Assembly: GCF_006345805.1 (NCBI RefSeq) | Contig: NW_021834578.1 | Span: 1 to 45,286, forward strand | From: Octopus sinensis | Lineage: Eukaryota | Length of the DNA: 45,286 nucleotides | Direction of reading: 5' to 3' | In this document: piece by piece, positions 4,717 to 44,500 of the stretch | How the letters are laid out: each line of letters begins with the position of its first letter | Numbering within the stretch: the first letter of the stretch is position 1 | Notes under the pieces: generated by a model | Seen by the model: the letters and a program-made list of their open reading frames with translations, nothing else | Databases searched by the model: none | What the model was told of the DNA's origin: nothing | Translations under genes and position numbers: made by a program

Positions 4717-4761
4717 GGCCAGAGTTCTTTCGTCACACTCCTGTGACTGCATCAGTGGTCC
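4717..4761 (-). ncRNA. Minimal type I hammerhead-like motif (variant core)
   Basis: ggacca CUGAUGCA GUCACA ggag UGUGAC GAAA GAAC UC uggcc. Confidence 0.55.
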
Positions 4762-5173
4762 TTTGCTTTCTTCTTTCTTATTTCATGTCTCTCCTTACTA
4801 ACGAAAGAACTCTGGCCGAAATAAGATTAAGATTAATGTAAAAAATAAATAACACTGAAGCAAAGTAACACCAAATATATAGTGTGTGTGTTTTTGTTGG
4901 CTAAACTGGCAAAATGACCATTCCTAGATACAACAATAAAAATAATAGCAAAAATAATATAAAAGATAATAATAGTAATAGCCAGTTGAAACTTTAATGA
5001 TGATGAAGACTAAAGGAAGATAATGTTGTGGACAGTAGAAGAGATATGATGGACATAGGCAATAAACGACATGAGTAAAGTGAGAAGGATGGAAATGAAG
5101 CTAACCAGAATTATTCCTGGTGACCTTATACACATACCTATACATACACACACATATGCAAATGCACATGGAT

Positions 5174-5227
<54 letters not shown>

Positions 5228-5759
5228 AGATATGGAGGGAGAAAGACAAACTTAATTTGCAGCAGTAAGTTTCACCCTACCAAATTGGTAACTTGGGCTG
5301 AGTTGCTTGCACCCATAGTTACATTGAAATATTCTAGTCTGTCCATATGAGGCTGTCATTCAAAGTAAATATTGTTTTCCTAGCTGCTACAATTGGGCTG
5401 GTGTCTTTAAATAAAGAGGTGTTCCTGATGGCAAAGATTATAGCCTCACTGAGAAGTACAAGTTTAATAGATGAGTAGTACAAGTTGATATCTATCTGTA
5501 TGAATTTATTTGTATTTTGTAAAGTAAATTCTTAAACCAGTCAATAACATCAGTTGTGTCTGACCAAAGATCTAGTTTAATAAGTTTCCTCAATGTAGGG
5601 AGTATCATATCTATAACGGTTTTGTGATTGCAAATATGTCAATTTTCATTCGGAACTTTTGTGTGAGCTTACATTAAAAGCTGAGCTCGTACAAAAACAA
5701 CTACAACTGACCATTAAAGATGTGTTGAAGTCTTCTTATTTGGATTGTATAAATATATA

Positions 5760-5970
5760 TAGGAAATGACCAGAGACCGAGACCTTTGGAAGTATGCTGT
5801 GCGTGAGAAGACCCAGCAGGACAAGTGAGGCCTGTGCATACCTTCCTTCTTGGGACACAAAATTCTACTTGTGAAGACCTGTTGAGGCAAGTGAAAATCG
5901 AAATCGATCAACATAAATGGAATTTGTAGTTGTGATACCAGTTCTGGTGGCACGTAAGAGAACCATCCGA
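5760..5970 (+). mobile_element. RTE fragment (ORF end and start of 3'UTR)
   Basis: EMTRDRDLWKYAVREKTQQDK* followed by the 3'UTR start. Confidence 0.85.
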
Positions 5971-6085
5971 AAGAGATACTTTTTTATCGAGATTTCATTG
6001 CTCATAATTACAGGTAAATATTATACAAGCATATATTATCACTAACAAGTATAGTGTATGTATGTAGTGTGTGTGTGTAGATACA

Positions 6086-8199: not shown

Positions 8200-8358
8200 T
8201 AACAATACAGGTTTCCACAGGGACAAACAAATTCTACTCACAAAAGCATTTCAGACAACCAGAAACTATAATAGGAGACACTTGTCCAAAGTGTACACAG
8301 TCCTTACAGAGTACCTGCAATTATAATTTACAGAGGTGTATTACCAATTGTTACTTAC

Positions 8359-8426
8359 TGAGGAGTATCACTTATTTTCAAAACAGAACGTTCTGGTATA
8401 GAAAAATGCTTCTCCCTTTTTTCATC
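8359..8426 (-). CDS. MAN2A1: alpha-mannosidase II coding exon E (not in ORF track)
   Basis: DEKREKHFSIPERSVLKISDTP. Long polyT tract plus aaatacag acceptor, GTAAGT donor, 68 nt, phase 0 to 2. Resembles the corresponding human MAN2A1 segment as recalled (D..Q..QDSLP...I.LS..P). Confidence 0.8.
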
Positions 8427-8899
8427 CTGTATTTAAAAAAAAAAAGAAATAGTTTGTAATTTACTCTCAGCATTTACATTTGTGAGAAATAGCAACCAAA
8501 TCTTCCTCAAATCACACTTTAAAATGCATGACACAGAAGTATTTAAAACAACAATTTTCCTAAAATGATGCATCAAAAATTTTACTGTGTCGCAAGGGAC
8601 AAAAACAAATTTCAAGCAAAGTCTCTTTTTGATATCAACCAACCTGACACAGCTCCCACTTCTTCTGAGATACAAACTTCCTGTTTTAAAGTGATCTGAC
8701 CAAACATTTATTGAAGAATATCTCCCAATGAATACTTATAAAGGAGCAGCCTCAATTATTATTTACTGCATCAGACTCTCTATTTGCCATTCAGTATCCT
8801 GAATCAACAATCTTTTGTAATTACTTTCATGCCAGATTTCTTTTCAGTCATGGAAGTGCTTACGAAGGAAAGGAAATCAAAAGCAGTCATTCAACTCAC

Positions 8900-9014
8900 A
8901 ACATTAAACATAGGTTTTTCTTTGGAGTAGCTGTATTTGCTTTTCTCCTTCATCATTAAAAATGTGATGGATTCTGTTGTCAGTCTCTTCATCTCCATCA
9001 TAGCAGTCAGCAAC
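8900..9014 (-). CDS. MAN2A1: alpha-mannosidase II coding exon D (not in ORF track)
   Basis: (R)LLTAMMEMKRLTTESITFLMMKEKSKYSYSKEKPMFNV. Acceptor ttttcag, donor GTGAGT, 115 nt. Phase 2 to 0 continues exon C and resembles the MAN2A segment after DYGxR. Confidence 0.85.
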
Positions 9015-9309
9015 CTGAAAAATAAAAAAGACAGATTCTCTTATTCCTTTATTTGTATATTTATTTCTTTATCCTTGTAATGGATCCAGGCTTTGAATTA
9101 CAGTTATGATGGAGCACTTCCTTCAGGTAGTGTATGTGCACCTATGTATATGTGTACACACATATACACACAAAATCTTCCCAGTTGGGGAGACTATGTA
9201 GTCACCTCTTCAGCCAGACACCTGTCCTGTCTCTCATACTTTCATAGTAATATACCCCACAGAGTTGAGAGGCCTTGTCTTGCAAATACTTTCTAGCCTA
9301 ACTAGTGCA

Positions 9310-9472
9310 GGCGACACAGAAAAAGCAGCCAGTATACTATGTGAAGTGTAACATGCAACTGTAGAAACCTTGCCAAAACAAACATTAGACTTCAGTGCAG
9401 CCTTTTGGCTCATCAGTTCCAGTCAAACCCATGACAGCATGGAAAAAGGTATGTGAAACGATAACGATGACA
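9310..9472 (+). mobile_element. Degenerate RTE 3' tail
   Basis: ctgtagaaacc...cccatgacagcatggaaaa...aacgataacgatgac. Confidence 0.55.
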
Positions 9473-9482
9473 ACTAGACTAG

Positions 9483-9512
<30 letters not shown>

Positions 9513-9522
<10 letters not shown>

Positions 9523-9820
9523 GAAATGAAGAAAATGCTGACAAAATAATTTAAGTAATTTAAGTAATTTAATTAGGTGAAAGTTCTTTTTACCGGTTGC
9601 GCATTTGTTATGCTTATCAAAAGATATTTTTTTAAGAGAGATTAGAGCTCCTTTTTGATAGATTTCAGATAAGAGGAAAAAATCTATCAGAAAGGAACTC
9701 TATCTCTCTTTTTGATAGGCATAACAAATGCGCAACCGGTAAAAAGAACTTTACCTAATTAAATTACTTAAATTACTTAAATTATTTTGTCAGCATTTTC
9801 TTCATTTCCTTTTTATATAT
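9513..9820. repeat. ~150-bp-arm inverted repeat between (TA)n tracts
   Basis: aaaaggaaatgaagaaaatgctgacaaaat...gatagattt is the reverse complement of aaatctatc...attttgtcagcattttcttcatttcctttt. Confidence 0.9.
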
Positions 9821-9851
9821 CACAACTCGTGTTCCACATCTCCTTTTTTAG

Positions 9852-9911
<60 letters not shown>

Positions 9912-9914
9912 TAT

Positions 9915-12900
9915 GTTGTTGACGAACGACACAGACCTCTTTGTGGCTGGTGATTTCAATGGACATGTTGGACAACGTGCAGGGGGCTTCCATGGCATAC
10001 ATGGAGGCTATAGCTTTGGTTCCCGCAATGAGAAGGGAACCGGACTGCTGGAGTTCTGCGATGCAAATGATCTTATGGTTTGCAATACCAACATCAGGAA
10101 ACCTGCCTGTCACCTAGTCACCTATCGTTCTGGCAGAGACACCAGCCAAATTGACTATATCCTCACCAGAAAAAGGGAAAGAGGGCTGCTTATAAATGCC
10201 AAAACCTTCCCAGGTGAAGAATGCACCCCTCAACATAGATTAGTAGTTAGTGACTTCAGGATCGGGGCTGAATGGATGCCCAGAACACGACCAGCCTGGA
10301 GGAGAAGGGTCTGGAAACTTAAAGATCCTGCAAATGGGCAGAGATTTAGAAACGTATTACTCGAAGCCTTTGATGAAATAGAAGGGGATATAGCATCACA
10401 TAATGTGGAAGACAACTGGAGGTTTCTATGGGACAACCTGCTGAGAGCCACTGACCAGATCTGTGGCTGGTGCAAAGTCCCCTCTCGACCCAAGGTAACG
10501 TGGTGGTGGAACAATGTGGTTGACAGGGCTATTAGACAAAAGAAACAGGCTTGGAAGGACTGGAAGAACGGAGGTAGCAGGGAATTGTATCAGACTGCCA
10601 AAAGGGAAGCTAGGAGACAGGTTTATTTAGCCAGATAAGGAAAAATTTGCCAATGTTCTGTGCTGTGAGGACGAAAGACTTGAGGTATTTCGTGTTGCAA
10701 GACAGTGTGTGAGAGAGAATCATGATGTGGTAGGAGAAAAATGAGTTCGCATGGATGATGGTTCACTTACACTAAATGAGGATGCAAAGAGAGAGGTTTG
10801 GAGACACAACTATGAAAGGTTGCTGAATAAAGAAAATGAATGGGATAAAGAGAGTCTGCCGAATGTCGACCCAACAGAGGGACCAGCAATCCGAGTTAAC
10901 AGTTCCTTAGTAGTTAAGGCAATTACAAGCATGAAAACAGGGAAAGCCCCAGGCCCATCAGGAATTACTGCAGAGATGCTCAAAATATTTGGTAGTGTCG
11001 GCTATAGCCTAGTCACCCGTGTAGTTAACCAGGTGATACACGAAGGAGTCATACCCAATGACTGGTGTAGCAGCATAATAGTCAACTGCTACAAAGGTAA
11101 AGGTGACGCCCTAGATACAAATAACTACAGGGGTATAAAGCTGTTGGATCAGGTAATGAAGGTTACGGAGAGGGTCATAGCCCAACTAATTAGAGAGAGA
11201 GTTAGTTTGGATGAGATGCAGTTTGGGTTGGTGCCAGGGAAAAGTACCACTGATGCTATATTCCTGGTAAGACAGCTGCAGGAGAAATACCTGGCCAAAG
11301 ATAAGCCCCCGTACCTGGCTTTTGTTGACATGGAGAAAGCCTTCGACAGGGTCCCCCGATCTCTTATCTGGTGGTCAATGAGGAAACTAGGGATAGATGA
11401 ATGGTTAGTGAGAGCTGTGCAAGCCATGTACAAGGATGCTGTCAGTAAGGTGAGGGTTGGCAATGAGTACAGTGAAGAATTCCGGGTAGAGGTTGGGGTC
11501 CACCAAGGTTCAGTCCTCGGCCCCCTCCTATTTATCATAGATTTCCAGGCAATAATGGAGGAATTCAAGACAGGATGCCCCTGGGAGCTCCTCTATGCTG
11601 ATGACCTTGCTTTAATTGCTGAGTCACTATCAGAACTGGAGGAGAAGTTTCAGGTGTGGAAACAAGGATTAGAACCGAAGGGCCTTAGAATCAACCTAGC
11701 TAAAACCAAAGTCCTAATAAGTAGGAAGGTAGACCAATCACAAACGCCTTCAGGTAGATGGCCCTGCTCGATCTGTAAAAAAGGTGTAGGTAGAAACTCT
11801 ATAAGGTGCACCAAGTGTAAGCTATGGACACATAAGAGGTGCAGCAATATCAAAGGAAGGCTAACTAGGAAAATAGTTTTTGTATGTGGCAGATGCTCAG
11901 GAGCAATAAACACTGAAAATGTGCAGAGACCAACTTCTACCACGTTCCAGGGAGACAAACTAGAAGTAGTTGATAGCTTCCGCTACCTAGGTGACCAAGT
12001 CAGTAGTGGGGGTGGGTGTGTTGAAAGTGTAACTGCTAGAGTAAGAATAGCTTGGGCAAAGTTTAGAGAGCTCTTACCCCTTACTGGTGACAAAAGTTTA
12101 GAGAGCTCTTACCCCTTACTGGTGACAAAAGGCCTGTCGCTCAGAGTAAAAGGCAGACTGTATGATGCATGTGTACGTACAGCCATGCTACATGGTAGTG
12201 AAACATGGGCCGTGACTGCTGAGGATATGCGTAAGCTCGCAAGAAATGAAGCCAGTATGCTCCGATGGATGTGTAATGTCAGTGTTCATAATCGACAGAG
12301 TGTAAGTACCTTGAGAGAAAAGTTGGACCTAAGAAGCATCAGTTGTGGTGTGCAAGAGAGACGTTTGCGCTGGTATGGTCATGTGGCGAGAATGGATGAA
12401 GATAGTTGTGTGCAAAAGTGCTACACCCTAGCGGTTGAGGAAACCTGTGGAAGAGGTAGACCCAGGAAAACCTGGGACGAGGTGGTGAAGCACGAGCTTC
12501 GAACTTTAGGTCTCACCAAGGAAATGATTAGAGACCGAGACCTATGGAAGTATGCTGTGCGTGAGAAGACCCGGCAAGACTAGTGAGGCCATAACCCATG
12601 GCCTCTACCTGGTATGTAGCCAGTCGACTTATACATACCTTTCTTTCTTGGGACACAAAACTCCACTTGTGAAGACCCGTTGAGGCAAGTGAAAATCAAA
12701 ATCAAAAAATCAAAATCAAATCAGATATCAGAAAGCAGAACCAAAATCGAAGTCGATCAACATCAATGGAAATTGCAGCTGTGATACCAGTGCTGGTGAC
12801 AATTAAGCGAACCATCCGATTGTGGCCGTTGCCAGCACCGCCCTGACTGGCCTCCGTGCCGATGACACGTAAAAAGCACCATCTGTTCGTGGCTGTTGCC

Positions 12901-13613
12901 AGCACCGCCCCAACTGGCCTCCGTGCTGGTGACACGTAAAAGCATCATCCGTTCGTGGCCGTTGCCAGCACCGCCCCAACTGGCCTCCGTGCTGGTGACA
13001 CGTAAAAAGCACCATCCGTTCGTGGCCGTTGCCAGCGCCGCCCCAACTGGCCTCTGTGCTGGTGGCACGTAAAAAGCACCATCCGTTCGTGGCTGTTGCC
13101 AGCCTCGCCTGGCCCCCGTCCCGGTGGCACGTAAAAAGCACCATCCATTCATGGCTGTTGCCAGCGCCGCCCCAACTGGCCTCCGTGCCAGTGGCACGTA
13201 AAAAGCACCATCTGTTCATGTCCGTTGCCTGCTTCACCTGGCCCCCGTGCGGGTGGCACGTAAAAAGCACCATCCGTTCGTGGCTGTTGCCAGCCTTGCC
13301 TGGCCCCCGTGCCGGTGGCACGTAAAAGCATCATCCATTCATGGCCGTTGCCAGCCTCGCCTGGCCCCTGTGCCGGTGGCACGTAAAAAGCACCATCTGT
13401 CCGTGGCTGTCTACCAGCTCTGTCTGACACCTGTGCGGGTGGCACGTAAAAAGCACCCACTACACTCTCGGAGTTGTTGGCGTTAGGAAGGGCATCCAGC
13501 TGTAGAAACATTGCCAGATCAGACTGGGCCTGATGCAGCCTTCTGGCTTCACAGACCCCAGTTGACCCATCCAACCCATGCTAGCATGGAAAACGGACGC
13601 TAAACGATGATGA

Positions 13614-13617
<4 letters not shown>
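9915..13617 (+). mobile_element. Long RTE-clade LINE (partial APE + RT, disrupted)
   Basis: APE motifs GDFNGH and SQIDYIL (ORF to 10638), a 610-aa RT ORF at 10751-12583, ~11 3'UTR repeat units and a (GAT)n tail. Deletion and stop at 10636-10745. Confidence 0.96.
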
Positions 13618-13664
<47 letters not shown>

Positions 13665-13666
13665 AA

Positions 13667-14390
13667 CATGGCTATATGTTCAAGAGGCTTGCTTCTCAAA
13701 CATGTGGTCTTGTCTAGTGTTCAGTCTCACTGAGTAGCACCTTGAGCAAGTGTCCCCTGCTATAGCCAAACCCTTGTGAGTGGAATTGATGTATGGAAAC
13801 TGATAGAAGCCTGCTGTATATATGTGTGACATTTTTCATGCCTGGCCATGTGTAAACATTATCCTGCTTGGAGTGGTTGGATGTTAGGAAGGGCATAGAA
13901 GCCAAGCCAAAACCAAACTGGAGCCTGGTACAGCTCTGCAGCTTACCAGTTCCAGTCAAACCATCCAACCCATGCCAGCATGGAAAGTGGACATTAAATG
14001 ACAATGATACGATGATAATATATATATATTTATCCCATCATTAGCATCTTCATCGTCATTTAATGTCCACTTTTCCATGCTTGCATTGGTTAGACAGAAT
14101 TTGTTGGGGCAGATCTTCTATGGCTCGATACCTTTCCTGTTATCAAGCATGATGTTTACCCATGGCCAGGCGTATGTTTTATGGACGTTGGTTCACAACC
14201 ATCACATGCTGTCACGTACACAAATACATACATATATACAGCAGGCTACTTTCAGTTTCCATATATCAAATCCATTCACAAGGGTTTAGCTATAGTAGGA
14301 GATACTTACTCAAGGTGCTGCACAGTGGGACTAAACCCTAGATAAGACCACATGTTTAGGAAGCAAGATTCTTAACCATGTAGCCATGTT
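13667..14390. mobile_element. Cluster of old SINE fragments and RTE 3' tails in both orientations
   Basis: SINE pieces at ~13667-13815 (+) and ~14210-14385 (-). RTE tails at ~13868-14015 (+) and ~14045-14150 (-). Confidence 0.6.
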
Positions 14391-14397
14391 TGCACGC

Positions 14398-14445
<48 letters not shown>

Positions 14446-14447
14446 TA

Positions 14448-14680
14448 TCTGTAAAATAATATGTGACAATTATTCGGCAGCCAAGATAAAACTCTGAGTT
14501 TCGGATGCCAAGGTGGAAATCTTTGGAGATGGTGTTGTGGATTTCCACCTCAGCATCCGAAACTCAGAGTTTCATCTTGGCTGCCGAATAATTGTCACAT
14601 ATTATTTTACAGATAAATTTCCTCTATTTACATAATGTTGAGGTCTCTGTCTTTCTTTTGTTATCTTACCATTTTTACCA
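14448..14680. repeat. Fold-back Penelope pLTR remnant
   Basis: ~74-bp arms at 14448-14521 and 14540-14613 plus a tail. Same family as 31180-31256, which lies downstream of a GIY-YIG ORF. Retains the hammerhead 3' half catccGAAActcagagtt. Confidence 0.75.
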
Positions 14681-14820
14681 ATATATATATATATATATAT
14701 ACGGTTTAAGTAATTGAGATTCAAGTGAGTTCTAATGAATTCACATGAATATGGTCCTTAACTAGGATGCACCGGAAATCTATATGGTGTTAACCATACG
14801 ACAAAGTGGGGTGTTTACAA

Positions 14821-14890
14821 ATAGGAAAAAAGCAACAAGAATGGATCAATTTACCGATATATTGATCCATTCTTGCTGCTTTTTTCCTAT
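14821..14890. repeat. 30-bp-arm hairpin next to (TA)n
   Basis: ataggaaaaaagcaacaagaatggatcaat pairs with attgatccattcttgctgcttttttcctat. Confidence 0.8.
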
Positions 14891-14904
14891 ATATATATAT
14901 ATAA

Positions 14905-15344
14905 CCAAATCAAAATAGATGAACATCAATGGATTTTGTATCTTTGTGGTACCAGTGCCGATGGCACACAAGAAAACCATCCGAACGTGGCCGTAGCCAG
15001 TACCGCATCGACTGGCCTCCGTGCTGTGGGCATGTAACAAACACCATCCGATCGTGGCTGTTCGCCAGCCTCATCTGGCACCTGTGTCGGTGGCACATAA
15101 AAAACACCATCCGAGCATGGCCGTTCGCCAACCTCGTCTGGCACCTGTGTCGGTGGCACATAAAATCACCCACTACACTCTCGGAGTGGTTGGCGTTAGG
15201 AAGGGCATCCAGCTGTAGAAACACTGCCAGATCTGACTGGCCTGGTGCAGCGTTCGGGCTCCCCAGACCCCAGTTGAACCGTCCAACCCATGCTAGCATG
15301 GTTAGCAGACGTTAAACGATGATGATGATGATGATGATGATGAT
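14905..15344 (+). mobile_element. RTE 3'UTR-only copy
   Basis: Four repeat units, the conserved ggcgttaggaagggcatccagc block and (GAT)n. Near-identical to the minus copy at 30053-30481. Confidence 0.85.
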
Positions 15345-15374
15345 ATATATATACAAAATATATATACACACATA

Positions 15375-16725
15375 AGCGGCACCCAGATATCTTCCATGGG
15401 GTGCATGAGGGACATGGAATTGGTTGCCAAAATGAGAAGTATATAAAGCTGCTGAAATTCTGTCACACAAATGACCCAATGATCTGCAACATCAGAAAGC
15501 CAACAAGTCACTTGATAACCTATAAAGCCAGATTGACTACATTCTCACAAGAAAGCAGACAAATCACAAATCCCCTAAGGTAGATAGCCCTGCTCAATCT
15601 GTAGAAAAGGCATAGGTAGAAACTGAATAAGATGTACCCAGTGTAAGCTATAGATACATAAGAGGTGCAGCAATATCAGAGGAAGTTAACTTGGAAAATA
15701 GTGTTTGTGTGTGTAAGGTGTACAGGTACAATAAACACCACAAATGCACAGAAAATAGATGCCATCAAATGCCAGGCAGGTAAGTGGAGGTGGATGCTCC
15801 GAGAGTATAGCTGTAAGAATAACAATAGGATGGGCAAAGTTCAGAGTGTTCCTATCTCTGTTAGTACCAAAGGGCCTCTCCCTCAGAGTGAAAGGCAGAC
15901 TGTATGATTGATGCCTGTGTTTGAACAGTTGTGCTACATGGCAGTAAAACACAGGCTATGACTACCAAGGACATGTGTAATCTTGAAAGAAATGAAGCAG
16001 GGTATGCTTTGCTGGATGTGCAAAGTCAGTGTGCATGTATGACAGAGTGTAAGCATCTTGAGAGAAAAGCTGGGCATAGGAGGCATCAGATGTGATGTGC
16101 AAGGGAGACAACTGCATTTATATGGTCATATGATGCATCTGGATGAGGACAACTGTGTAAAGAAGTGCCAATCTCTAACTGTGAAGGGAACCTGTGGAAG
16201 AGGTAGACCAGGAAGACATGGAATGAGGTGGTGAAGCATGGTCTTCAAATGTTGGGCTTCATGGAGATGATGACAAGTGACTGAGACCTCTGGCAATATG
16301 CTGTGTGTAAGAGGACTCGTCAGGCGAAATAAAATCATAGTTGTGGCCATGCTAGTGCCATGTAAATAACACCCAATGCATTGAGGTCATGGTCATTCAT
16401 GGCATCTGTGTATCATAGTCATGGTCATTGATTAAGTCCTGAAAATTGGTATCCAGGAATCGTTCTCATTGGCAGTGCCATGTAAATGGCACCTGTGAGT
16501 TTTCGTTACTGGTGCCATGCAAACGGCACCCATGAATTGTAGTCATGGTTGCACGTAAAAGTATCCATTACACTCCTGGAGTGGCTCATGTTGGGAAGGG
16601 CATCCAACAGTAGAAACCAAGCCAAATCAGACTGGAACTTGGTGCAGCTCTCCAGCTCATCAGTTCCAGTCAAACGGTCTAAACGATGCCAGCATGGAGA
16701 GTGGATGTTGAATGATGATGATAAT
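15375..16725 (+). mobile_element. Old, internally deleted RTE LINE
   Basis: Degenerate APE piece joined to the PHD/RT C-terminus and 3' tail. Confidence 0.8.
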
Positions 16726-17217
16726 GAACATTTTTGACATATTTTGCTTTCTTATTATTTTGGTAAAGGCAAGAAAGTTGCTGAGGTTCACAAAGAGATA
16801 TGTGAAGTTTATGGTGTTGATTGCTTAACAGAATGCAGATGTCAGAAATGGTTTTAAAAATTCCATTCTGGAGATTTTTCACTCAAAGGTAACCAATGTT
16901 TTGGTCAACCTACAGAAGTTGATGATGACCGTATCAAAGCTATAATTTAATTTAATTGCCATATAACTGTGTGAGAGATTGCAGAGAGGTTAAATGTATC
17001 ATACATAACAATTGAAAATCATTTAAAATGTCTCGGACTTGTTAAGAAGCTTGACATTTGGGTTCCACAGAAATTGAATGAGATTCACTCAACACAATGA
17101 ATCAACATTTGCGATATGTATTTAAAACACAATGAAATCGACCTGTTTTTGAAACAAATCATCACAGGTGATGAAAAATGGATTGTCTACAATAAGATCA
17201 ATCGAAAACAATCATGG
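16726..17217 (+). mobile_element. Mariner (DD34D) transposase pseudogene, N-terminal half
   Basis: EICEVYG...W..F.SGDFSL...KLDIWVP.KL...IITGDEKWIVY, with in-frame stops. Confidence 0.88.
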
Positions 17218-18222
17218 CAAGCTGTGATGGTGGCTTTGGAGGCTAAACATGGTGATTTAGAAATTTCTTGTTTTCTGAAAGTTGCAAGATCTTTTGTCTA
17301 CAAGATTTGGTGTGAGTTAGAGGAAGCGTATTACCTGTATCAAAACATAAAAAAAACATTCCACACATTCTGATTCTATCAGACACCTGAATTTATTCAA
17401 GAAGTTAAGCAAAACATTGAAAACAATCCAGGAAAATCAATGAGGTCAATCGCAAAAAAAATAATCAGAAATGTTGTGCATGAAGGTATCTGATACAAAT
17501 CTTACCTGATGAGGAGAGGTCAATTAATGTCAGAAAAATCAAAAGAAAAGTCCTTAATCAGAATCAAAAGATTTTTGAACAAACTTAAATATCCATCAGA
17601 AGATGGTATGATTTGGTTTTTCTCAGATGAGAAAAACTTTGACCAGGACCAGAAAACTAACAGATGACAGGTGGCTATGTACAGACACTTCTGAGGTTCC
17701 AAGAGTAATGCATACAAAATTTCCTGCAAGTGTTATGTTTTTGGATGCTGTTAACAATGAAGGACATGTGAGGCCTCCTCACTTTTTTTCTACAAGGCCT
17801 TAGGATGAATACTACTGTATATATTGAGGTTCTGGATAAAGTTGTTAAGCTTTGGATCAACAGTGTTTACAATGGAAGGCCTTATATCTCTAAAGATCTC
17901 AATCCACTGGATTACTGTGTATGGAGCATTGTCGAGAAAAATGTCAATGAACACCCCCATAGCTCTAAAGATTCTTTGAAAGCCACCATAGTTCGAGTCG
18001 TCCAATATGAACAAGGACAATTTAATCTGAGATTGTAAATGATTTCGACCCCGTGTAGAGGCAGTTATTGATGCTTATGGTGGTTTTACTGAATGAAATT
18101 ATTAAAATGATAATTTAGATTTATGTTTATGTTATTTTTAAAAAATACAGTTTTTTTCTGTTATAAAAAATAAGTGTTTTTAAAAAGCATAAATCTGCCC
18201 TCAAATACCATCTGCACTCTGT
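17215..18222 (+). mobile_element. Tc1/mariner-superfamily maT (DD37D-like) transposase relic
   Basis: NPGKSMRSIA, FFSDEKNFDQDQK, VMHTKFPASVM, PPHFF.QGLR and DLNPLDYCVWSIVE, with a deletion around the second catalytic Asp. Confidence 0.8.
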
Positions 18223-18240
18223 GTGTGTTTGTGTAATGTG

Positions 18241-18275
<35 letters not shown>

Positions 18276-18281
18276 ATGCAC

Positions 18282-18412
18282 AGGCATGGTTGCGTAAAAG
18301 AGGCTTACTTTCTGACCACTGGTTGCAGGTACAGTCCTGCTATGTGACAGCCTTAGATTGATCAAAGTCTTGTGAGGAGATTTGATACACAGAAGCTGAA
18401 AGTAGCCCATCA
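18282..18412 (+). mobile_element. Degenerate SINE fragment
   Basis: caggcatggttg...aaagtcttgtgaggagatttgatacacagaagctgaaag. Confidence 0.5.
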
Positions 18413-18554
18413 TATGTGCATATATATGTGTGTATGTGTGTGTTCACGTGTGCGTGGGTCTTTTGTTTTGTGTTGTGTGATAACTGTAAATGATTGTCAC
18501 TATCACAGAAGTAGTGTCATTCATTTCCAATATTCTGCAAGAACATGATAGACA

Positions 18555-20027
18555 AGTTCTTGCAGAATATTGGTCTCGGTTTCTTGCCATCTGAAGATCC
18601 GTCACCACTTCACCCCACATCTTCCTGAGTCTGCCCCTTCCACAATTAGAAATCAGCACTTCTTTATGCAGCTATCCACAGCGCAGTCTTCCTTCTTGCA
18701 CACTACAACTGATGCCCCTGAAACCTAGTTTTTCTCTTAAATCCTTTACTAACATTATCCATCCAGCAGAGCATGCTGGCTTCAATCCTTTCAACCCTTC
18801 TCATGTCCTCTGCAGTCACAGCCCATGTTTCACTGCCAGGTAACATAGCTGTATGTACACAGGCATAATACAATCTGCCTTTCACATTCTTAGTATTTAT
18901 TGTACCTGCACATTTGCCACACACAAAGACTACTTTCATTGTTAACCTTCCTGTGACACCAATACACCTCTTACGTGTCCAAAGCTTGCACCGAGTACAT
19001 ATGGAGTTTTTACCAACACCCTTCTTACATATCAAGCAAAGCCATTTTTCTGAAGGGACTTGTGATTTGTCTAAGGCCTTTAGATTCCAGACTTTGCTTC
19101 CATACCTGAAATTTCCTCTCTAGTTTGGGTAGTAATTCAGTTATAAAAACAAGATCATCAGCATAGAGAAGCTCCCAAGGGATCTTAAATCCCTCTGTTA
19201 TTGCTTGGTGGATTATGATAAACAAAAGGGGGACGAGAACTGATCTTTGGTGAACTCCTACTAAATTCATTGCTATACTCATTACCAACCTTCACCTTAC
19301 TGACATCATTCTGTACATGGATTGTACACTCATCTATCCCTAGCTTTTGCATTGACCAGTAGATAAGGGAGCAGGGGACCCTAACAAAGGTTTTCTATAT
19401 GTCAACAAAAGCCAAATACAGGTTTATTTTTGGCTACATGTTTCTCCTACCAGGTACAAAACCAAACTGCATCTCATCGAAGCTAACTCTCTTATTAGTT
19501 GAACCTAATTAGTTGAACTATGACCATCTCTGTAACTTTCATCATCTGGTCCACCAATTTGATACCTCTGTAATTGTTTCTATCTAAGGTGTCGCCTTTA
19601 CCATTGTAGCAGTTGCTGCTACACCAGCCATTGGGTATGACTCCATTGTCGATAACCTGATTAACTCTACAGATAACTAGGCCATATCAGCAGTGATTTC
19701 TGAAGGGCTAGGGGCTTTCTTTGCTTTCATATCTTCAATTGCTTTATCAGTCAAGCTACTGTCTATTTGGATAGCTGGTTCCTCTGTTGGATCCACATTG
19801 GACAGACTCCTCTTCTCACATGTGTTCTCAACATTTAACAGCCTCACATAGTGGAATCTCCAAGCCTCTTTCTTTGCAGAATAACTAACTGCAAATGCAC
19901 TCTTCTCTCCTGCAGCATCACAATTCTCTCTGATACACTGTCTTGCAATCCAAAACACCTCAAGTCCCTGGTCCTCATGCTGCAGACCACCAGCAGACTT
20001 CTTTCTTTCTACTTCTCCTGTGGCTAA
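18555..20027 (-). mobile_element. Old degenerate RTE LINE
   Basis: ORF pieces NVDPTEEPAI, PWELLYADDL, CKKGVGKNSIC and GRGR. Confidence 0.85.
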
Positions 20028-20102
20028 ATCTACCTAGTATATATTACATATACAGACACATACATATATGCACAGAATAAACAAGCAGACAACGATACAA
20101 AC

Positions 20103-20285: not shown

Positions 20286-20436
20286 CTGTATAACAGACAC
20301 AATACAAGATATAAGACACACGCCTGACACCTGACATTTCATAAAAATGCATTCCATGAATGTAAGCAAAATCAAGGCAACTGAAAAGACAATGTCAGAG
20401 CACAGACCACCTACAAATGCTATAAAGACACTACAT

Positions 20437-29350: not shown

Positions 29351-29890
29351 CAGCTATTTCTAAGTGGTCAAACTACAATGTAAAAGCATTCACTGTTGGA
29401 TCTCTCTTCATATTTGTATTTGACTTGCAAGATTCATAAAATGTGTATCTTTTTTTTTTGGTGGATTTCTAAAAAGAAACACACCCATTAATACTAGTTA
29501 ATTTAATTGTTTATTCAACTACTTAATCAATTAACTTAACTGCTTGATCAATCAATTAATCGGCTAATTGTTTAGAATCTCTTTGTCATGCTCCCATTAC
29601 TCCAGACCTGGCTCAGTCCTTCCTTTATATTCAGAAATCTATTACGGAAAATTAAACCTCCTTGTAATCTACTACTTTTTATTGTATTTTTTCTTTTTTA
29701 TTATTTTATTATATTATATTTCCCCCTTTCTAACCTCTCCTGCTAACAGTGTTCTGCTGTTGTCTTACTGTAGAAATATATATTTATATATAGTTAATCC
29801 AAACAAGAAAACACAAAAAAACACAACAACGCGAGGACGTGGAACAAATATAGTATTATTGGACGCTCAGGAAAGAAGGGAAGAAGGAGG

Positions 29891-29925
29891 GTTTAACGTT
29901 TCGAGCGGAGCTCTTCGTCGGAAAC
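29891..29925 (-). ncRNA. Minimal hammerhead-like motif in a Penelope-like tail (element ~29790-29998)
   Basis: guuu CCGACGA a GAGC ucc GCUC GAAA CG UU aaac. The element is flanked by TA-rich tracts. Confidence 0.6.
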
Positions 29926-30005
29926 ATAGGAGAAGGAAAGATCCCGAGAAAGGAAGACAGAGGGAAAAAAATCGCCAACGGTACACACGAGGTCACATAT
30001 ATATA

Positions 30006-30049
<44 letters not shown>

Positions 30050-30052
30050 TAT

Positions 30053-30481
30053 ATCATCATCATCATCATCATCATCATTTAACGTCCGCTTTCCATGCTA
30101 GCATGGGTGGATGGTTCAACTGGGGTCTGGGGAGCCCGAAGGCTGCAGCAGGCCAGTCAGATCTGGCAGTGTTTCTACAGCTGGATGCCCTTCCTAATGC
30201 CAACCACTCCGAGAGTGTAGTGGGTGATTTTATGTGCTACCGACACAGGTGCCAGACGAGGCTGGCGAACGGCCACGCTCGGATGGTGTTTTTTATGTGC
30301 CACCGACACAGGTGCCAGATGAGGCTGGCGAACGGCCACGATCGAATGGTGTTTGTTACGTGCCCACAGCAAGGAGGCCAGTCGATGCGGTACTGTCTAC
30401 GGCCACGTTCGGATGGTTTTCTTGTGTGCCACCGCACTGGTACCACAAAGATACAAATTCCATTGATGTTCATCTATTTTT
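30053..30481 (-). mobile_element. RTE 3'UTR-only copy
   Basis: Reverse complement of 14905-15344. Confidence 0.85.
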
Positions 30482-30630
30482 AGAGACAAAACCATTATTA
30501 TGCAAATCATTTGCATAATAGTGGTTTTGTCTCTAATTTAATATAATATAATATTTTACTATAAAATTGGATTCAATCCTAAATCTGATTTTTCCCTGTA
30601 AGTTTGGATTTATTCCCTAATATTTATTAT
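30481..30630. repeat. Short palindrome plus tail of the 24400 family
   Basis: tagagacaaaaccattattatgcaaat c atttgcataatagtggttttgtctcta. The same sequence occurs at 24412-24440. Confidence 0.75.
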
Positions 30631-30633
30631 ATA

Positions 30634-31152
30634 TCTATATATATAAAACTGTGGTTGTGTGAGTGTCTGTCCCCTTCGATTAGATTCCTAACTCCTCCCA
30701 CATTTTGCGGTGCAGTTTAACCAAATTCGGGTATCTTATAGTCGGGATTCATATCGAGCCCGTCTGAGTATTAGCGCGCGTCTACGATGAGTCTACGATG
30801 AGTCTACGATTTAAAAAATAATTTAACATCATTTTTTATTCCATTTTAATGCATATTTTTTGTGTGTCGATGGTGGCGGAGTTGGAGTCCATGGTCACAC
30901 CTGCACCTGTTTGCTTCTCCCCCTTCTTCCTCCCTCGTGAAGCTGTGGTGAAGGGAGTGTAAGGAAATCAACGTCGTAAAGCGTTGTCAGGAGACCAGCG
31001 TTCTTTTAGAACAACGACTTCATGGCTTGAAGACACCAAACAGAAATGGCTAAGAAAGCCTGAATTGACATCTATAAGGGAAGTAACTCTCTAAAAATGC
31101 TTATATAGTTATTTCCCTTACAAACCCGAGCAACGCCGGGCGATACTGCTAG
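30634..31152 (+). mobile_element. Non-autonomous Helitron
   Basis: A|TC ... cccgagcaacgccggg ... CTAG|T. Confidence 0.87.
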
Positions 31153-31179
31153 TTATATATATATATATATATATATATG

Positions 31180-31757
31180 TCTCGGTAGTCAAGATAAAAC
31201 TCTGAGTTTCAGATGCCGAAGTGGAAATCCACAACACCATCTCTTTGGTTATCTGGCTATTTGAAAACGTTATGAAAAAATACCGTTAAAAATAAAGGAA
31301 ATTACTCTGTTATAACTCTGCTTTGCCTGCGTACTTAAACATCGCTCGCATTTTTCGTCATAAAAATTATATAAAAATACATAAAAATATATAAAAATAT
31401 ATAAAAATATATAAATTCTTCTTGGGACATAACACAGAAAGCATGTTCTATCTGTTATCTTTAGGGGACCAAAAACGTAACAGAAATTTAGTCACATGTG
31501 GGCATGATCCGAAAAGCTCTGTCCTTGTATTTAGACATGTGGTAGGGTCTAAGCTGCTTTTCCAGATAAGCCATCTCTCCATGTCGCATAAACCGCACCT
31601 TCCGCTGCCGTTAGTATAGGGCTTACATCTGGCCAAAATCTTCCATTGTATGTTATAATCGACCCCTTTATCTCTTAAAGACCAAATATGATTGGATAAT
31701 TGTGTCGCTTTTCTTTTGTTCCAGTGCCTAAAGCTCAAAGTGTGGTTACCGTTTTAT
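31180..31757 (-). mobile_element. Penelope-like element 3' fragment (GIY-YIG endonuclease C-terminus + pLTR)
   Basis: ORF 31448-31738: T.LSNHIWSL...IQWKIL...Y......C.LC..E...I......LN.R.ELF..C.H. A degenerate hammerhead fold lies at 31190-31256. Confidence 0.82.
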
Positions 31758-31784
31758 CAATATATATATATATGTATATACAGT

Positions 31785-32043
31785 AGTGAAGGCTTAGTGG
31801 TTGGAGTAATTGGTTTACAATCATTAGATCGTGAGTTCAATTCCCTGCGGCACGTTGTGTCCTTGAGCAAGACACTTCACTTCATGATGCTCCAGTCCAC
31901 TCAGCTGGCAAAAATGAGTTGTACCTGTAATCCAAATGTCTGATCTTGTCACATTCTGTGTCAGACTGAATCTCCCTGAGAACTACATTAAGGGCACATG
32001 TGTCTGTGGAGTACTCAGCCACTTGCGTGTTAAATTCATGAGA
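31785..32043 (+). mobile_element. tRNA-derived SINE (1082 family)
   Basis: ggcttagtggtt...gagttcaattccc...gtgtccttgagcaagacactt. Confidence 0.78.
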
Positions 32044-32059
32044 ACGCTATTCTCCAGAT

Positions 32060-32570
32060 GTTGAGTTTGACAGTGGAGATGACAAAGGATTGAGATGACT
32101 GGTGATTTGCTGTGCCCGAGAAGACCTCTCCATCTCAGCATAAATGAGAGCCCAAAATCAAATCCCTTATGCCTATAGCCTCAGCACCCAATCCGTCCTA
32201 AACCTGTCTCTTCCCTACAACACATCTAAATACCCACTCTAACATCACTCTTCTGACTAGAGCAAAACAGAACATATTTCATCCTCCACCATTTTGTGCT
32301 CCCACTCACCCTCCCCGACACCATTTACTCTGTTTCTTGCATCCTCAATATCATCTCTTACTTACCATTATATTTTCTGTTAAATGCCCCTTTCACTTCC
32401 AGTCTTCTCCTTCACACCCTCTCATTCCATCAATGGCAGCCCCCACTACTGATGTTCATCTCCCACTATTTCCACCCCTTTGTACCTCTGACCTTGTCTC
32501 TGGCACCTACCATCTCTCACCTACCACCCACACTCCACATCCATTTATGCTGCAACTTATCCCAAGCCTT
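32060..32570 (+). mobile_element. Old RTE-like ORF end with pyrimidine-rich 3' region
   Basis: LTVEMTKD*DDW*FAVPEKT resembles the RTE C-terminus. The downstream assignment is tentative. Confidence 0.4.
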
Positions 32571-32576
32571 AGGTGA

Positions 32577-32706
32577 AGGCGCATGGCTCAGCGGTTAGAG
32601 CGTTGAGCTTACGATCGTGAGGTTGTGAGCTCGAATCCCGGACCGGGCTGCGTGTTGTGTTCTTGAGCAAGGAACTTTATTTCACGTTGCTCCAGTTCAC
32701 TCAGTA
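32577..32706 (+). mobile_element. Truncated tRNA-derived SINE
   Basis: A box tggctcagcgg, B-box-like ctcgaatc, core ttcttgagcaagg. Confidence 0.75.
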
Positions 32707-32762
32707 GAAATACAAGTGAAAACCCAATTTAAAAAAGAGTAAAAAAACAGTGGAGTCCTCAC

Positions 32763-32940
32763 ATCAACTTTCATTTTTGGATGGGAGTTCATGTAGTCAA
32801 ACAGCTTCTTGTAGTTCTGATACTGCAGGTCCCATTCATTGGACTTGTCATACCGAAAGTCATCACCCAGAGGTATCAGTACAATGTTCTGTCGGTTTAG
32901 CTGAGATTTCTTGCGGTACTGATCGAGTAACATTTCAGCC
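32763..32940 (-). CDS. MAN2A1: Golgi alpha-mannosidase II (GH38) coding exon A
   Basis: Translates (R)[59 protein letters not shown], containing the GH38 acid/base motif LIPLGDDFR. Acceptor tttaccag, donor GTGAG, 178 nt, phase 2 to 0. Paralogue (MAN2A1 vs MAN2A2) cannot be resolved by eye. Confidence 0.93.
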
Positions 32941-33088
32941 CTGGTAAAGACAGAGAGAGACAAGCAGACACTCAGACAAACTGACACAAGAAAAATGGCA
33001 ACAGATTAATTAATCTTTTTTTTTATGTTCATATTTCCTTGCTAGTATGGCTTAGATGACTATATTACTGAGGCATTGTTTAAAATTA

Positions 33089-41527: not shown

Positions 41528-41559
41528 ATATATATACAAATATATGCATGTGTGTGTGT

Positions 41560-41945
41560 GTATGAGTGGATGCGTGGTAAGTAGCTTGTTTACGAACCAC
41601 ATGGTTCCGGGTTCAGTCCCACTGCGTGGCACCTTGGGAAAGTGTCTTCTGCTATAGCCTCGGGCCAACCAAAGCCATGTGAGTGGATTTGGTAGACGGA
41701 AACTGAAAGAAGCCCGTCGTATATATGTATATATATATGTGTATGTTTGTGTGTTGTGTTTGCCCCCCTCACCCAACATCGCTTGACAACCGATGTTGGT
41801 GTGTTTACGTCCCCGTAACTTAGCGGTTCGGCTAAGACTGATAGAATAAGTACTAGGCTTACAAAGAATAAGTCCTGAGGTCGATTTCCTCGACTAAAGG
41901 CGGTGCTCCAGCATGGCCACAGTCAAATGACTGAAACAAATGAAT
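41560..41945 (+). mobile_element. tRNA-derived SINE (second family)
   Basis: Matches 2197-2597 in reverse. Confidence 0.8.
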
Positions 41946-42169
41946 GAATAAAAAATATATATTCTGTGATTTGTAACCTCAACACAGGAGAGTCTCTTTT
42001 TCAAGGATGGACTTTATGAAATTTTACTCATCATACATTGAAGGACAAATCTTTCAATTTACAATTTAATATAGTGGAACATTTAGTATATGCGTGTGTG
42101 ACAAAACACGGATTTCAGAAAAATGACCAGCTAAGCGATTTTAACTTTCAACCTCATCCATTCATATTT

Positions 42170-43592
42170 TTATGCGTAGATTCGTAACCCTAACCCCTTC
42201 CCCTCGTTCTCTATTATCTATTTCTCTATCTTGTAAACATGGCACCGATAGCTTCCTGTCTGTCTTAAGATCTTGCATTTTTCTATTCCTCTTTTATTTC
42301 AGGTTTATCCCTTCGTTATTCCATTCTCCCGAATTCCCTACAAAAATATTCTTTCTTCCTTAACGTCTGACCACCTAAGGCTCTGACCCCACCCCCCTCT
42401 GACCCACTGTCTCTCTCTTTCGACTTAGCACTGCGGTTTCCATTCAATTAAATTATGTTTTCCTCAAATCCCAAAGTTTCAACTTTCAACTCTATCTCAC
42501 GATTTCGGCATTGGCTGTTTCAGTAATTTTTGTTGCAGAGAATTCCCTACGAATAATCTTCTCCCTTGTGTCTGTCCCTCAACCTCGTTGCTCCTTCGCA
42601 GTGCGCCCGCCCGCCCTCCCACCCCCTCCACCAATACCGGAAGTTTCTACCTCTGTCTTACATGGCTATCCCCCCCACGAATACCCCCACCGGCACCCCT
42701 ATGTAGGGTTTATTGTGATCATATAGCGCAAAAACTGTGAAATGTATGCAGGTTGTAGTCTAGAGTCTCAGTATGAAATCTGGCAAATGCAAGCTTTCTT
42801 TTCAGGTACATGACACGGCTGTCCCTCATCCCAGGGTCTCAGAGGCCCACACCTCCCACGCCCTCAGAGTTGGCACACTCAATGTTGGCACATTGAAAGG
42901 TAGGTGTGGAGAGCTGCTTGAACGGAGACGTGTGGATTTATGCTGCATCCAAGAAGTAAAGGTGGAGAGGAGGTTCCTCACAGACAAGGAACACAGGTAC
43001 AAGATTTTCTGGGCAGGGAACACTGACGGGGTCGGGGGCGTGGGTATGCTTCTTGCAGAGAAATGGGTAGATAAGGTAATCGAGGTAGTCAGAGTAAGTG
43101 ACAGAGTACTTAAGATTAGATTAGTGCTTCACCATAGGTCAGCTACCATCATCTCGGCATATGCCCCTCAACCAGGACTACCGGAAGGACAGAAAGACCA
43201 ATTCTATGACACCCTATTGCGGACTACCTCGTTGACAAATGACAGTGACCTTCTCTTTGTGGCAGGTGATTTCAATGGACATGTCGGACGGCATGTCGGG
43301 GGCTTCCATGGCGTTCATGGAGGTTACGGTTTTGGCTCTCGCAATGAGGAGGGAACCAGGCTGCTGGAGTTCTGCGATGCAAATGACCTTATGATTTGCA
43401 ATACCAGCTTCAGGAAACCCCCTCTCACCTAGTCACCTACCGTTCTGGCAGACACACTAGCCAGATTGACTACATCCTAGCCAGAAAGCGGGAAAGGGGC
43501 TGCTTATAAATGCCAAAACCTTCCCAGGCGAAGAATGTACTCCTCAAATATATTAGTAGTTAACGACTTCAGGATCAGAGCTAAATACATGC
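42170..43592 (+). mobile_element. RTE LINE 5' portion (leader + APE endonuclease)
   Basis: ORF 42773-43432: LRVGTLNVGTL, CCIQE, GVG..L, SAYAPQ, GDFNGH. The left boundary is approximate. Confidence 0.9.
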
Positions 43593-43594
43593 AC

Positions 43595-44500
43595 CAGAAT
43601 TCTGTATGGTGTTATCCATATAAATCCGTGGGGTGATTATAATCAAAATAAGCAACAAGAATGACTCCGGAAATTTGGTATGATCGTTTCGTACTACATC
43701 ATTTTATTAAATGTTGTAAGTATTACAACAGTTTTTAAAATACTGAGCACTCATCAGCCAATTATAGAGGTTTTCCATTAATACAAAAATTTTAATATCA
43801 AGTGGCAACATTATGGAGAAGGTAGATACATAGACAAAGATGTGGATTTAAATTTTAAGAACATTTGAGGTAGTGGAGCCCATCAACTGAATGACTAAGA
43901 TTCAGTTGTTCCAGACTGCTGAAAGGTTGTGAGGGAAGACAAATGAAAGGAGACAAAGATTTTCTATTTATAGAAATGGATAAAGGGGATGTCAGAGCTC
44001 TAAAAGGAATTCATGTTGAAGACAGCAATTACCACTACCAAATGCCAATTACTACTATTTGATGAACAGATTTGGCATTAGGAGAACTAGGTCAATGTCA
44101 AGTGGTCACAATAATATTCACAGAGAATGCGGAGACCTTACAAACCCTATGCACATCATCACAACAGTTGGTCTATAATTCCGAGTACATTGACACGTTA
44201 GAATAAAGGAAAAATATAAATCTAAAATTTATTCAATTATGAGTAGGCATAGTACTTATTAACTGGGGGGAAAACCTTATAATCAAGTGAACATATTAGG
44301 GGTCAAAATATATACTAAGAAAGATGAAGAAGAAAAATCAAGAGAAGAAATTCGTAGGTTTAGTAGAAGTGATTTAATAATATGAAGAGAGGTAATTTAG
44401 AAGAGTAAATTATTCAGATTTCATGGATAGTGAGTTGATATTATGAATTAAAAATAGGATCTATTGGAAATAAAATTTGCTACCTGAGGATAAGGTTAAT
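43595..44500 (-). mobile_element. Probable degenerate Penelope-like element
   Basis: AT-rich insert separating the RTE halves, with a hammerhead near its minus-strand 3' end. No intact ORF. Confidence 0.5.
43675..43761 (-). ncRNA. Type I hammerhead motif
   Basis: uugg CUGAUGA GUGCU ...long loop... AGUAC GAAA CGAUCA UA ccaa. Confidence 0.72.

What the first reader, a model, noticed from the sequence alone, without database searches (positions are those of the whole stretch)
4717..43761. Dispersed set of hammerhead-ribozyme-like motifs from several Penelope/retrozyme-like families in the introns of one gene
Seen: nine folds with the layout helix I - CUGANGA-like core - helix II - GAAA - short helix III - UH - helix I, at 4717-4761(-), 23352-23426(-), 23565-23639(+), 24503-24566(-), 25067-25108(-), 25156-25203(-), 29891-29925(-), 31190-31256(-) and 43675-43761(-). 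Their helix sequences differ between families. Helix III is often palindromic or nearly so (ACAGCUGU, ACGCGU, A(C/U)GAUC(G/A)U). Known: Penelope-like elements and non-LTR retrozymes carry minimal type I hammerheads with palindromic helix III that can act as dimers. Inference: octopus introns hold a diverse ribozyme-bearing retroelement community. Eight of the nine motifs are sense to the mannosidase pre-mRNA, so intact ones could nick introns during transcription. I cannot tell whether these particular families are already catalogued.
Basis: partly seen in the sequence, partly recalled or inferred. Interest (0 to 1): 0.85.

Follow-up and report, generated by a model that had tools for sequence, protein, structure and literature searches.

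The report
Penelope-type hammerhead ribozymes in octopus introns
The introns of this octopus mannosidase gene hold tail ends of several jumping-gene families that carry small hammerhead RNA motifs predicted to self-cut, a known arrangement that likely does nothing to the gene, though one young 362-base repeat shows clear marks of likely being copied around the genome by Penelope-type enzymes.

Summary
All nine motifs are at the stated places. The best ones exceed chance (3 strict hits against 0.025 per shuffle). They belong to seven dispersed repeat families. One (31190) is the tail of a Hydra-clade Penelope-like element (PLE); two more are linked to PLE coding sequence in a few copies. The 25067 motif sits in a young, non-coding 362-nt tandem unit (non-LTR retrozyme type; 1,029 exact ribozyme copies). 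Only 24503, 25067 and 43675 have a canonical or known-variant core with full helices; 29891 is a U4C variant; the other five are damaged or doubtful. The strand bias did not hold in 300 kb of other introns (9 sense, 10 antisense), and each motif lacks a same-family partner in the pre-mRNA for dimer cleavage, so intron nicking is unlikely. The kind is known (Cervera 2014), an Octopus Hydra PLE hammerhead is already tabulated (Craig 2021), and this scan noted the same thing in several other genomes. The best new point: the 362-nt unit inserts with the PLE signature (TA targets, inverted arm, two fixed ends; 19 of 20 two-armed insertions have one short and one long end). No cleavage or expression was shown.

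The parts
4717..4761 (-). Family A hammerhead-like motif, damaged core (CUGAUGC, A9C), helix III not palindromic; 3' end of a PLE-like family with a small inverted duplication
   Evidence: 11 of 16 distinct sequences A9C, 5 of 16 with intact core; GIY-YIG-like ORF upstream in 2 of 25 loci (E=4e-4, under the Pfam cut-off)
23352..23426 (-). Family B motif, one arm of a divergent inverted pair; lacks one A of GAAA
23565..23639 (+). Family B motif, other arm; core intact, helix III mutated from the family's ACAGCUGU, base of helix II mismatched
   Evidence: 0 of 26 distinct family sequences pass the descriptor
24503..24566 (-). Family C minimal type I hammerhead, canonical core, helix III AUGAUCGU (family ACGAUCGU); tail of a Hydra-like PLE; insertion absent from contigs C10485 and C10971
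24836..25292 (-). Family D insertion: 1.27 copies of a 362-nt non-coding unit in (TA)n; empty site in contigs C29 and C10485
   Evidence: longest open frame 69 codons in a tripled unit
25067..25108 (-). Family D hammerhead, U3-A8 core variant, helix I 6 bp, helix II 4 bp, helix III ACGCGU; predicted cut between 25073 and 25072; predicted to fold actively only as a homodimer
   Evidence: 27 of 28 pass; 1,029 exact matches, reversed control 0; z -3.26
25156..25203 (-). Motif E: hammerhead-like string fixed in the family D unit, with bulges at both junctions; relic of a second hammerhead or chance
   Evidence: z -1.05; fails all descriptors
29891..29925 (-). Family F minimal hammerhead: U4C core, extra A before G10.1-C11.1, helix III ACGU; short repeat with no linked coding sequence found
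   Evidence: 14 of 23 pass
31190..31256 (-). Family G hammerhead in the 3' repeat of a Hydra-clade PLE; this copy has U4C and G5A, so likely dead
31448..31753 (-). C-terminal end of the family G PLE protein (endonuclease region), 99% identical to the ORF in L137; 5'-truncated, in (TA)n; absent from contig C10485
43675..43761 (-). Family H minimal hammerhead, canonical core, helix III ACGAUCAU (family ACGAUCGU; self-pairing weakened from -10.0 to -4.8 kcal/mol)
   Evidence: 23 of 30 pass
14459..14602 (.).
8345..32945 (-). Five exons of the host Golgi alpha-mannosidase II (GH38) gene, at about 32945-32775, 26543-26340, 20287-20100, 9016-8905 and 8426-8345

Best explanation
The motifs are minimal type I hammerhead sequences in the 3' ends of several dispersed repeat families, likely all Penelope-like elements (PLEs) or their non-coding passengers, that landed in these introns and likely do not act on the host gene. 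Shown: the motifs, their families, the Hydra-clade protein motifs of family G, the TA targets, inverted arms, two fixed 3' ends and empty sites of family D, and no strand bias in the other introns sampled. Inferred from published PLE work: the PLE protein nicks AT-rich DNA and reverse-transcribes the element RNA from two internal start sites, which leaves mostly 5'-truncated tails that contain the hammerhead. Inferred from folding: the short palindromic helix III forms only between two copies of the same family, so cutting would happen in tandem transcripts (releasing unit-length RNA, for family D 362 nt), not in a lone intronic copy. Not shown: any cleavage, expression or circular RNA.
For: Descriptor hits exceed shuffles. 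In 986 kb of fetched DNA, 17 unrelated motif clusters appear against 1-4 hits per shuffle. Helix III, not required in that scan, is a >=6-nt palindrome in 13 of 17 clusters against 3 of 40 shuffle hits; leaving out the five query families it is 9 of 12, p=1e-5. Family G: the PLE ORF ends about 196 nt before the motif in 25 of 25 loci, 3 of them the window's own site. It has RWK, DKT, CxCx5C, CxxC and CxH, the Hydra features of PMC8557442 section 11. Family C: an RT 39% identical to G lies next to the motif in 3 of 30 loci. Family D: 47 of 49 3' ends fall at unit position 30-38 or 93-96, 43 of 49 abut TA-rich DNA, and 19 of 20 two-armed insertions have one end of each kind. This matches the tail and two start sites in PMC11167929. 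The D homodimer's lowest-energy fold is the double hammerhead, 6.1 kcal/mol better than two monomers, which misfold. U3-A8, the extra base after A9, palindromic helix III and opposite-strand pairs 100-700 bp apart are all described in PMC4209133. Strand split in other introns 5:5 and 9:10.
Against: No RT or endonuclease was found linked to families B, D, F or H within 1.5 kb, so their tie to PLEs rests on architecture and motif type. For C the linked loci come from one region of C4 and no endonuclease was seen. Rfam gave no hammerhead match. The lowest-energy homodimers of the window's C, H and F motifs are not the active fold. Within-family covariation could not be tested because the sampled copies are the 40 best hits and too alike. 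In the window itself the sense excess remains (8:2 by homology; 8 of 9 gives p=0.039), and the control covers only two genes and 19 copies.
Confidence: 0.85

Rival explanations
1. Intact sense-strand copies cut the mannosidase pre-mRNA during transcription and so affect its splicing or level.
For: All 4 descriptor-passing motifs in the window are sense; 8 of 9 gives p=0.039. Intronic hammerheads with proposed roles exist in amniotes (review passages).
Against: No bias in 300 kb of other introns. The nine reduce to about seven insertions. Single minimal motifs did not cleave in PMC4209133; the anole PLE hammerhead needed its protein and no RNA-seq reads ended at its site. No same-family sense partner lies in the window. 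C, D and G are absent from other copies of this gene region, so they are recent, not conserved. The window's copy of the gene has a 1-nt frameshift.
Confidence: 0.07
2. Most motifs are chance look-alikes in AT-rich, repeat-rich DNA.
For: Five of nine fail the descriptor; five fold no better than shuffles (z between -0.7 and -1.3); a relaxed scan also returned two unrelated hits at 21011 and 21934; no Rfam match.
Against: Shuffle controls; the unselected palindrome excess; other family members restore core bases damaged in four of the window's copies, A, B1, B2 and G. Only motif E remains a fair candidate for chance.
Confidence: 0.04
3. Family D is an ordinary satellite that expands by DNA recombination, and its hammerhead is an inherited relic.
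For: Long arrays show higher-order periods (every 4th unit in L231, every 2nd in L232), which unequal crossing-over can make. No partner protein was identified.
Against: Copies are dispersed over many chromosomes at 98% identity, have empty sites, fixed paired 3' ends and inverted arms. Unit-specific variants are shared between the inverted and forward arm of L231 (A162T).
Confidence: 0.1

Closest known systems
Minimal hammerheads (min-HHR) in pseudo-LTRs of metazoan Penelope-like elements (Cervera and de la Pena 2014, PMC4209133)
   Same: Type I layout, short helix I, palindromic helix III, U3-A8 variant, extra base after A9, opposite-strand pairs, mostly solitary truncated copies, many families per genome.
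   Different: Its searchable supplement lists molluscs (Lottia, Crassostrea) but not octopus (one file not searched). Here helix III is often longer (6-9 nt) and two families have U4C as the majority core.
Hydra clade of PLEs, including Hydra-1_Obim of Octopus bimaculoides (Craig et al. 2021, PMC8557442)
   Same: Family G has RWK, DKT, CxCx5C, CxxC and CxH, a C-terminal endonuclease, (TA)n targets and a 3' hammerhead with an odd-length palindromic helix III, as Hydra-1_Obim has.
   Different: A separate family: 28 of the first 44 residues match Hydra-1_Obim (counted by eye); different helix sequences; U4C core; young (98-99% identical copies).
Non-LTR retrozymes of animals (Cervera and de la Pena 2020, PMC7229834; Li et al. 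2026, bioRxiv 10.64898/2026.07.22.740005)
   Same: Family D: 362-nt non-coding tandem unit, 41% GC, one intact type I hammerhead per unit, monomers to 10-mers; the mussel units are 350-390 bp.
   Different: U3-A8 core and a dimer-type helix III; explicit PLE insertion marks (two fixed ends, inverted arm, TA target). Expression and circles are shown for mussel, coral and axolotl but untested here.
Poseidon element PAc of Anolis (Frangieh et al. 2024, PMC11167929)
   Same: Two internal reverse-transcription start sites that give an optional tail; AT-rich target; hammerhead not needed for insertion in vitro, which fits the spread of damaged-core subfamilies A, F and G.
   Different: PAc is autonomous with a 30-40 bp tail; the tail is about 60 nt in D, about 65 in G and about 80 in C.

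Membership tests
Type I minimal hammerhead ribozyme | Core CUGANGA (or UUGANAA) and GAAA, then UH | tested here: met
   Met for 24503, 25067, 43675 and 23565; U4C at 29891; not met for 4717, 23352, 31190
Type I minimal hammerhead ribozyme | Helices I and II abut the core | tested here: met
   Met for C, D, F, H and (with a bulge) the G family; not met for B and E
Type I minimal hammerhead ribozyme | Palindromic helix III allowing dimers | tested here: met
   13 of 17 clusters against 3 of 40 shuffle hits; not met for family A
Type I minimal hammerhead ribozyme | Compensatory changes in helices | tested here: inconclusive
   Helix sequences differ freely between 17 clusters while pairing holds, but pairing was selected for; a cross-family alignment failed; copies within families are too alike
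Type I minimal hammerhead ribozyme | Self-cleavage after H17 | not testable with these tools
   Needs an in vitro assay
Rfam hammerhead families | Covariance-model match | tested here: not met
   No hammerhead among 43 matches at E<=5
Hydra-clade PLE (family G) | RWK, DKT, CxCx5C linker, CxxC and CxH around E and N, C-terminal GIY-YIG | tested here: met
   Read in L124, L140, L137; Pfam GIY-YIG E=0.008, under its cut-off; criteria
Hydra-clade PLE (family G) | (TA)n insertion, partial tandems, inverted 5' copy, 3' hammerhead | tested here: met
Hydra-clade PLE (family G) | Placement in an RT tree with reference PLEs | not tested
   No reference set was loaded
PLE (families A, B, C, F, H) | RT/GIY-YIG ORF upstream of the hammerhead | tested here: inconclusive
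   RT beside C in 3 of 30 loci; GIY-YIG-like ORF before A in 2 of 25; none for B (30), F (25), H (30) within 1.5 kb
Non-LTR retrozyme (family D) | 150-450 nt non-coding tandem unit, GC under 50%, type I hammerhead in each unit | tested here: met
Non-LTR retrozyme (family D) | Expressed as unit-length linear and circular RNA | not testable with these tools
   No read evidence was obtained

The most novel reading that the evidence does not exclude
Family D is a currently active octopus retrozyme that a TA-targeting Penelope-like enzyme pastes into the genome by priming both nicked target strands at two different fixed sites of the RNA and running round a circular template. Monomer circles would give arrays whose units all share the same variants; dimer and tetramer circles would give the 2-unit and 4-unit periods seen in long arrays. 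This would be direct genomic evidence for the proposed but unproven link between retrozyme circles and PLE reverse transcription.
Probability: 0.45. Interest if true: 0.6.

Novelty: new member of a known kind. Interest (0 to 1): 0.32.

Why it matters
As a class this is known: PLE tails with minimal hammerheads litter many animal genomes. The octopus adds new families (about 10 descriptor-passing motifs per 300 kb of intron in my sample) and a clean natural example for an open question, how non-LTR retrozymes move. The 362-nt family has young copies, empty sites, fixed start sites and a hammerhead predicted to need a dimer, so the PLE-driven, circle-templated model can be tested on it directly. 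The idea that the motifs regulate the mannosidase gene is not supported.

Tried and rejected
Rfam scan: no hammerhead. Strand bias as a general feature: rejected; three further intron sets of 200 kb each were not obtained, so the control is two genes. Cross-family MAFFT alignment for pair counts: unusable. A first palindrome test that counted 2-4 nt helices was not significant (15 of 17 against 9 of 14, p=0.2); the >=6-nt test replaced it. Search for coding partners of B, D, F, H with tblastn and small endonuclease profiles: none; D has no relative under 93% identity in about 1 Mb. Type II hammerheads: 4 hits against 0-7 in shuffles, rejected; an alternative type III fold appears only for family H and rests on G-U pairs, not pursued. 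A C/H heterodimer (their helix III strands are complementary) was rejected by reasoning, since helix I would also have to pair across copies and cannot. Core bases varied less than flanks in B, C, F, H (15 of 862 against 285 of 8,388), but related copies are counted many times, so I do not rely on it. The H count read an overwritten file and was redone. Expression: no RNA holder listed; no reads were laid. Lunse et al. (dimer cleavage) was not held and is known to me only through review passages. Supplements not seen: PMC7229834 (too large), file 1 of PMC4209133, and both bioRxiv preprints; octopus families could be listed there.
Full report
Setting. The window is the whole of contig C11049 of a 2.72 Gb genome. 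The best named mollusc match to an exon is an Argonauta alpha-mannosidase, 83% identical, so the host is an octopod. Five exons of a GH38 Golgi mannosidase II lie on the minus strand between 8345 and 32945. The region recurs on at least six other contigs, which gave filled and empty sites to compare.

Observation. A strict type I descriptor finds three (24503, 25067, 43675) against 0.025 per shuffle. Allowing U4C and one extra base adds 29891, with 0 hits in 15 shuffles. The remaining five fail: A9C and no palindrome at 4717; a missing A at 23352; damaged helices at 23565; U4C plus G5A at 31190; bulged junctions at 25156. Rfam finds no hammerhead at E<=5. The nine come from seven families, each with 604 to 2,610 first-look candidates in the genome (these are not copy numbers, and only the best 40 were scored). 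Among distinct sampled sequences the descriptor is passed by 0 of 16 (A), 0 of 26 (B), 14 of 20 (C), 27 of 28 (D), 14 of 23 (F), 5 of 8 (G) and 23 of 30 (H).

The motif class is real. With no palindrome required, 986 kb of fetched DNA gave 209 hits in 17 clusters with unrelated helices, against 1-4 hits per shuffled set. This DNA is enriched for the query families, so the hit number is no density. Helix III was a palindrome of 6 nt or more in 13 of 17 clusters and in 3 of 40 shuffle hits; without the five query families, 9 of 12 (p=1e-5). Cervera and de la Pena 2014 (PMC4209133; parts 1-2 of 4 read, supplement searched) describe these same traits in PLE repeats, including the U3-A8 core of D, the extra base of F and opposite-strand pairs like B. 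Perreault 2011 (PMC3088659, passages) notes that U4C lowers activity in vitro.

What carries them. Family G is a young autonomous PLE: its ORF ends about 196 nt before the motif in 25 of 25 loci, three of which are the window's own site. It shows RWK, DKT, CxCx5C, CxxC and CxH, the marks of the Hydra clade in Craig 2021 (PMC8557442; passages, section 11 and supplement rows). That supplement lists Hydra-1_Obim from Octopus bimaculoides with its hammerhead; G is a different family. Family C has a related RT (39%) next to it in 3 of 30 loci. Family A follows a GIY-YIG-like frame in 2 of 25 loci. For B, F and H no coding sequence was linked; they share 3' ends at TA runs and some inverted pairs.

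Family D. This is a 362-nt, 41% GC, non-coding unit, 98% identical between the best copies, with 1,029 exact matches to a 35-base hammerhead pattern. It fits the non-LTR retrozymes of PMC7229834 (passages and section 14). The window's copy is missing at the same site in C29 and C10485. Over 29 insertions, 47 of 49 3' ends lie at unit position 30-38 or 93-96, 43 of 49 abut TA-rich DNA, and of 20 insertions with two outward-facing arms 19 have one short and one long end. Frangieh 2024 (PMC11167929; parts 1-2 of 4) traces this tail to two internal start sites and shows both target strands cut and extended. Li 2026 (bioRxiv 10.64898/2026.07.22.740005; parts 1-3 of 5) argues from trees and co-occurrence that retrozymes derive from PLEs and leaves the mechanism open. 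I saw no report of the tail signature in a retrozyme in the listings of searches, or of octopus retrozymes in searches; unread supplements may hold them. Of 80 variants at positions covered twice within an insertion, 20 are carried by every unit, 5 by some and 55 by one; divergence is 0.79% within and 1.21% between insertions. Four longer arrays each have array-wide variants, and two show periods of 4 and 2 units. A circular template explains this; so does copying or recombination of an already homogenised array. The D hammerhead misfolds as a monomer, while two copies fold best as the double hammerhead. These are predictions.

The host-gene idea. Eight of nine on one strand gives p=0.039, but the motifs are about seven insertions and two partial copies were missed (8:2 by homology). 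In 100 kb of the 5' part of a mannosidase gene on C30 and 200 kb of a dynein gene on C18 (direction) the split was 5:5 by descriptor and 9:10 by homology. The window's four intact motifs against 1.5 expected is not exceptional (p=0.07). Lone minimal motifs did not cleave in PMC4209133, and the anole motif needed protein. A dimer needs the same family on both sides, and none has a full sense partner in the window. C, D and G are absent from other copies of the region, and this copy has a 1-nt frameshift near 26470. The control is small, so a weak genome-wide bias is not excluded.

Earlier notes of this scan record the same kind of motif in introns of several other genomes and none in this genome; I treat them as leads only.

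Verdict. Real motifs, about half damaged, of a known class; new families; no sign of host function. Family D is the part worth following.

Noticed in passing
window about 26470 (-): The mannosidase exon has one C fewer in a C run, shifting the frame, in contigs C11049 and C12456; five other contigs (C29, C10485, C10971, C10932, C10717) are intact. Sequencing error or a dead duplicate.
   Followed up: partly
G000 C11049, C12456, C29, C10485, C10717, C10932, C10971, C16, C30, C11365: Pieces of this gene occur on many contigs with different insertions; the 5' exons are on C30; C11365 has a near-intronless relative at 42% identity.
   Followed up: partly
window 24638-24690 (+): Hammerhead core halves in permuted order (GAAAC first, CUGAUGA about 30 nt later), also in two related copies in L087; no helix I found and type II motifs are not enriched. 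Unexplained.
   Followed up: partly
window 33500-37300 (-): Ty3/Gypsy-type element with integrase and RNase H domains, several frame breaks; absent from contig C10485.
   Followed up: no
window 2800-4700, 6100-8200, 9900-13600, 38800-41600 and others: Several copies of a LINE with RT and PHD-like domains and a 62-67 nt tandem 3' region; RTE type by recall.
   Followed up: no
window 27126-29350: 20-bp satellite of 112 copies, longer in C29 and nearly absent in C10485.
   Followed up: no
window 5251-5519 (-): Decayed fragment of a PLE reverse transcriptase, 39-45% identical to family C RT.
   Followed up: no
window 23730-24241 and about 30640-31150: Two copies of a roughly 510-bp repeat; the first is absent from C29 and C10485. 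Kind not determined.
   Followed up: no
G000 C9183, C8702, C8740, C8701, C8698: Small contigs hold whole dynein heavy chain genes in about 15 kb with stops inside the matches: tiny introns of a co-sequenced organism (a dicyemid parasite is my recalled guess) or processed copies.
   Followed up: no
L005, L033, L085, L105, L130, L163, L202, L212, L228: About ten further hammerhead families with intact cores turned up in flanking DNA.
   Followed up: partly
L234 (G000 C2:41418500-41420600): A family D insertion outside TA repeats is flanked by a shared 9-base string, a possible target-site duplication.
   Followed up: no
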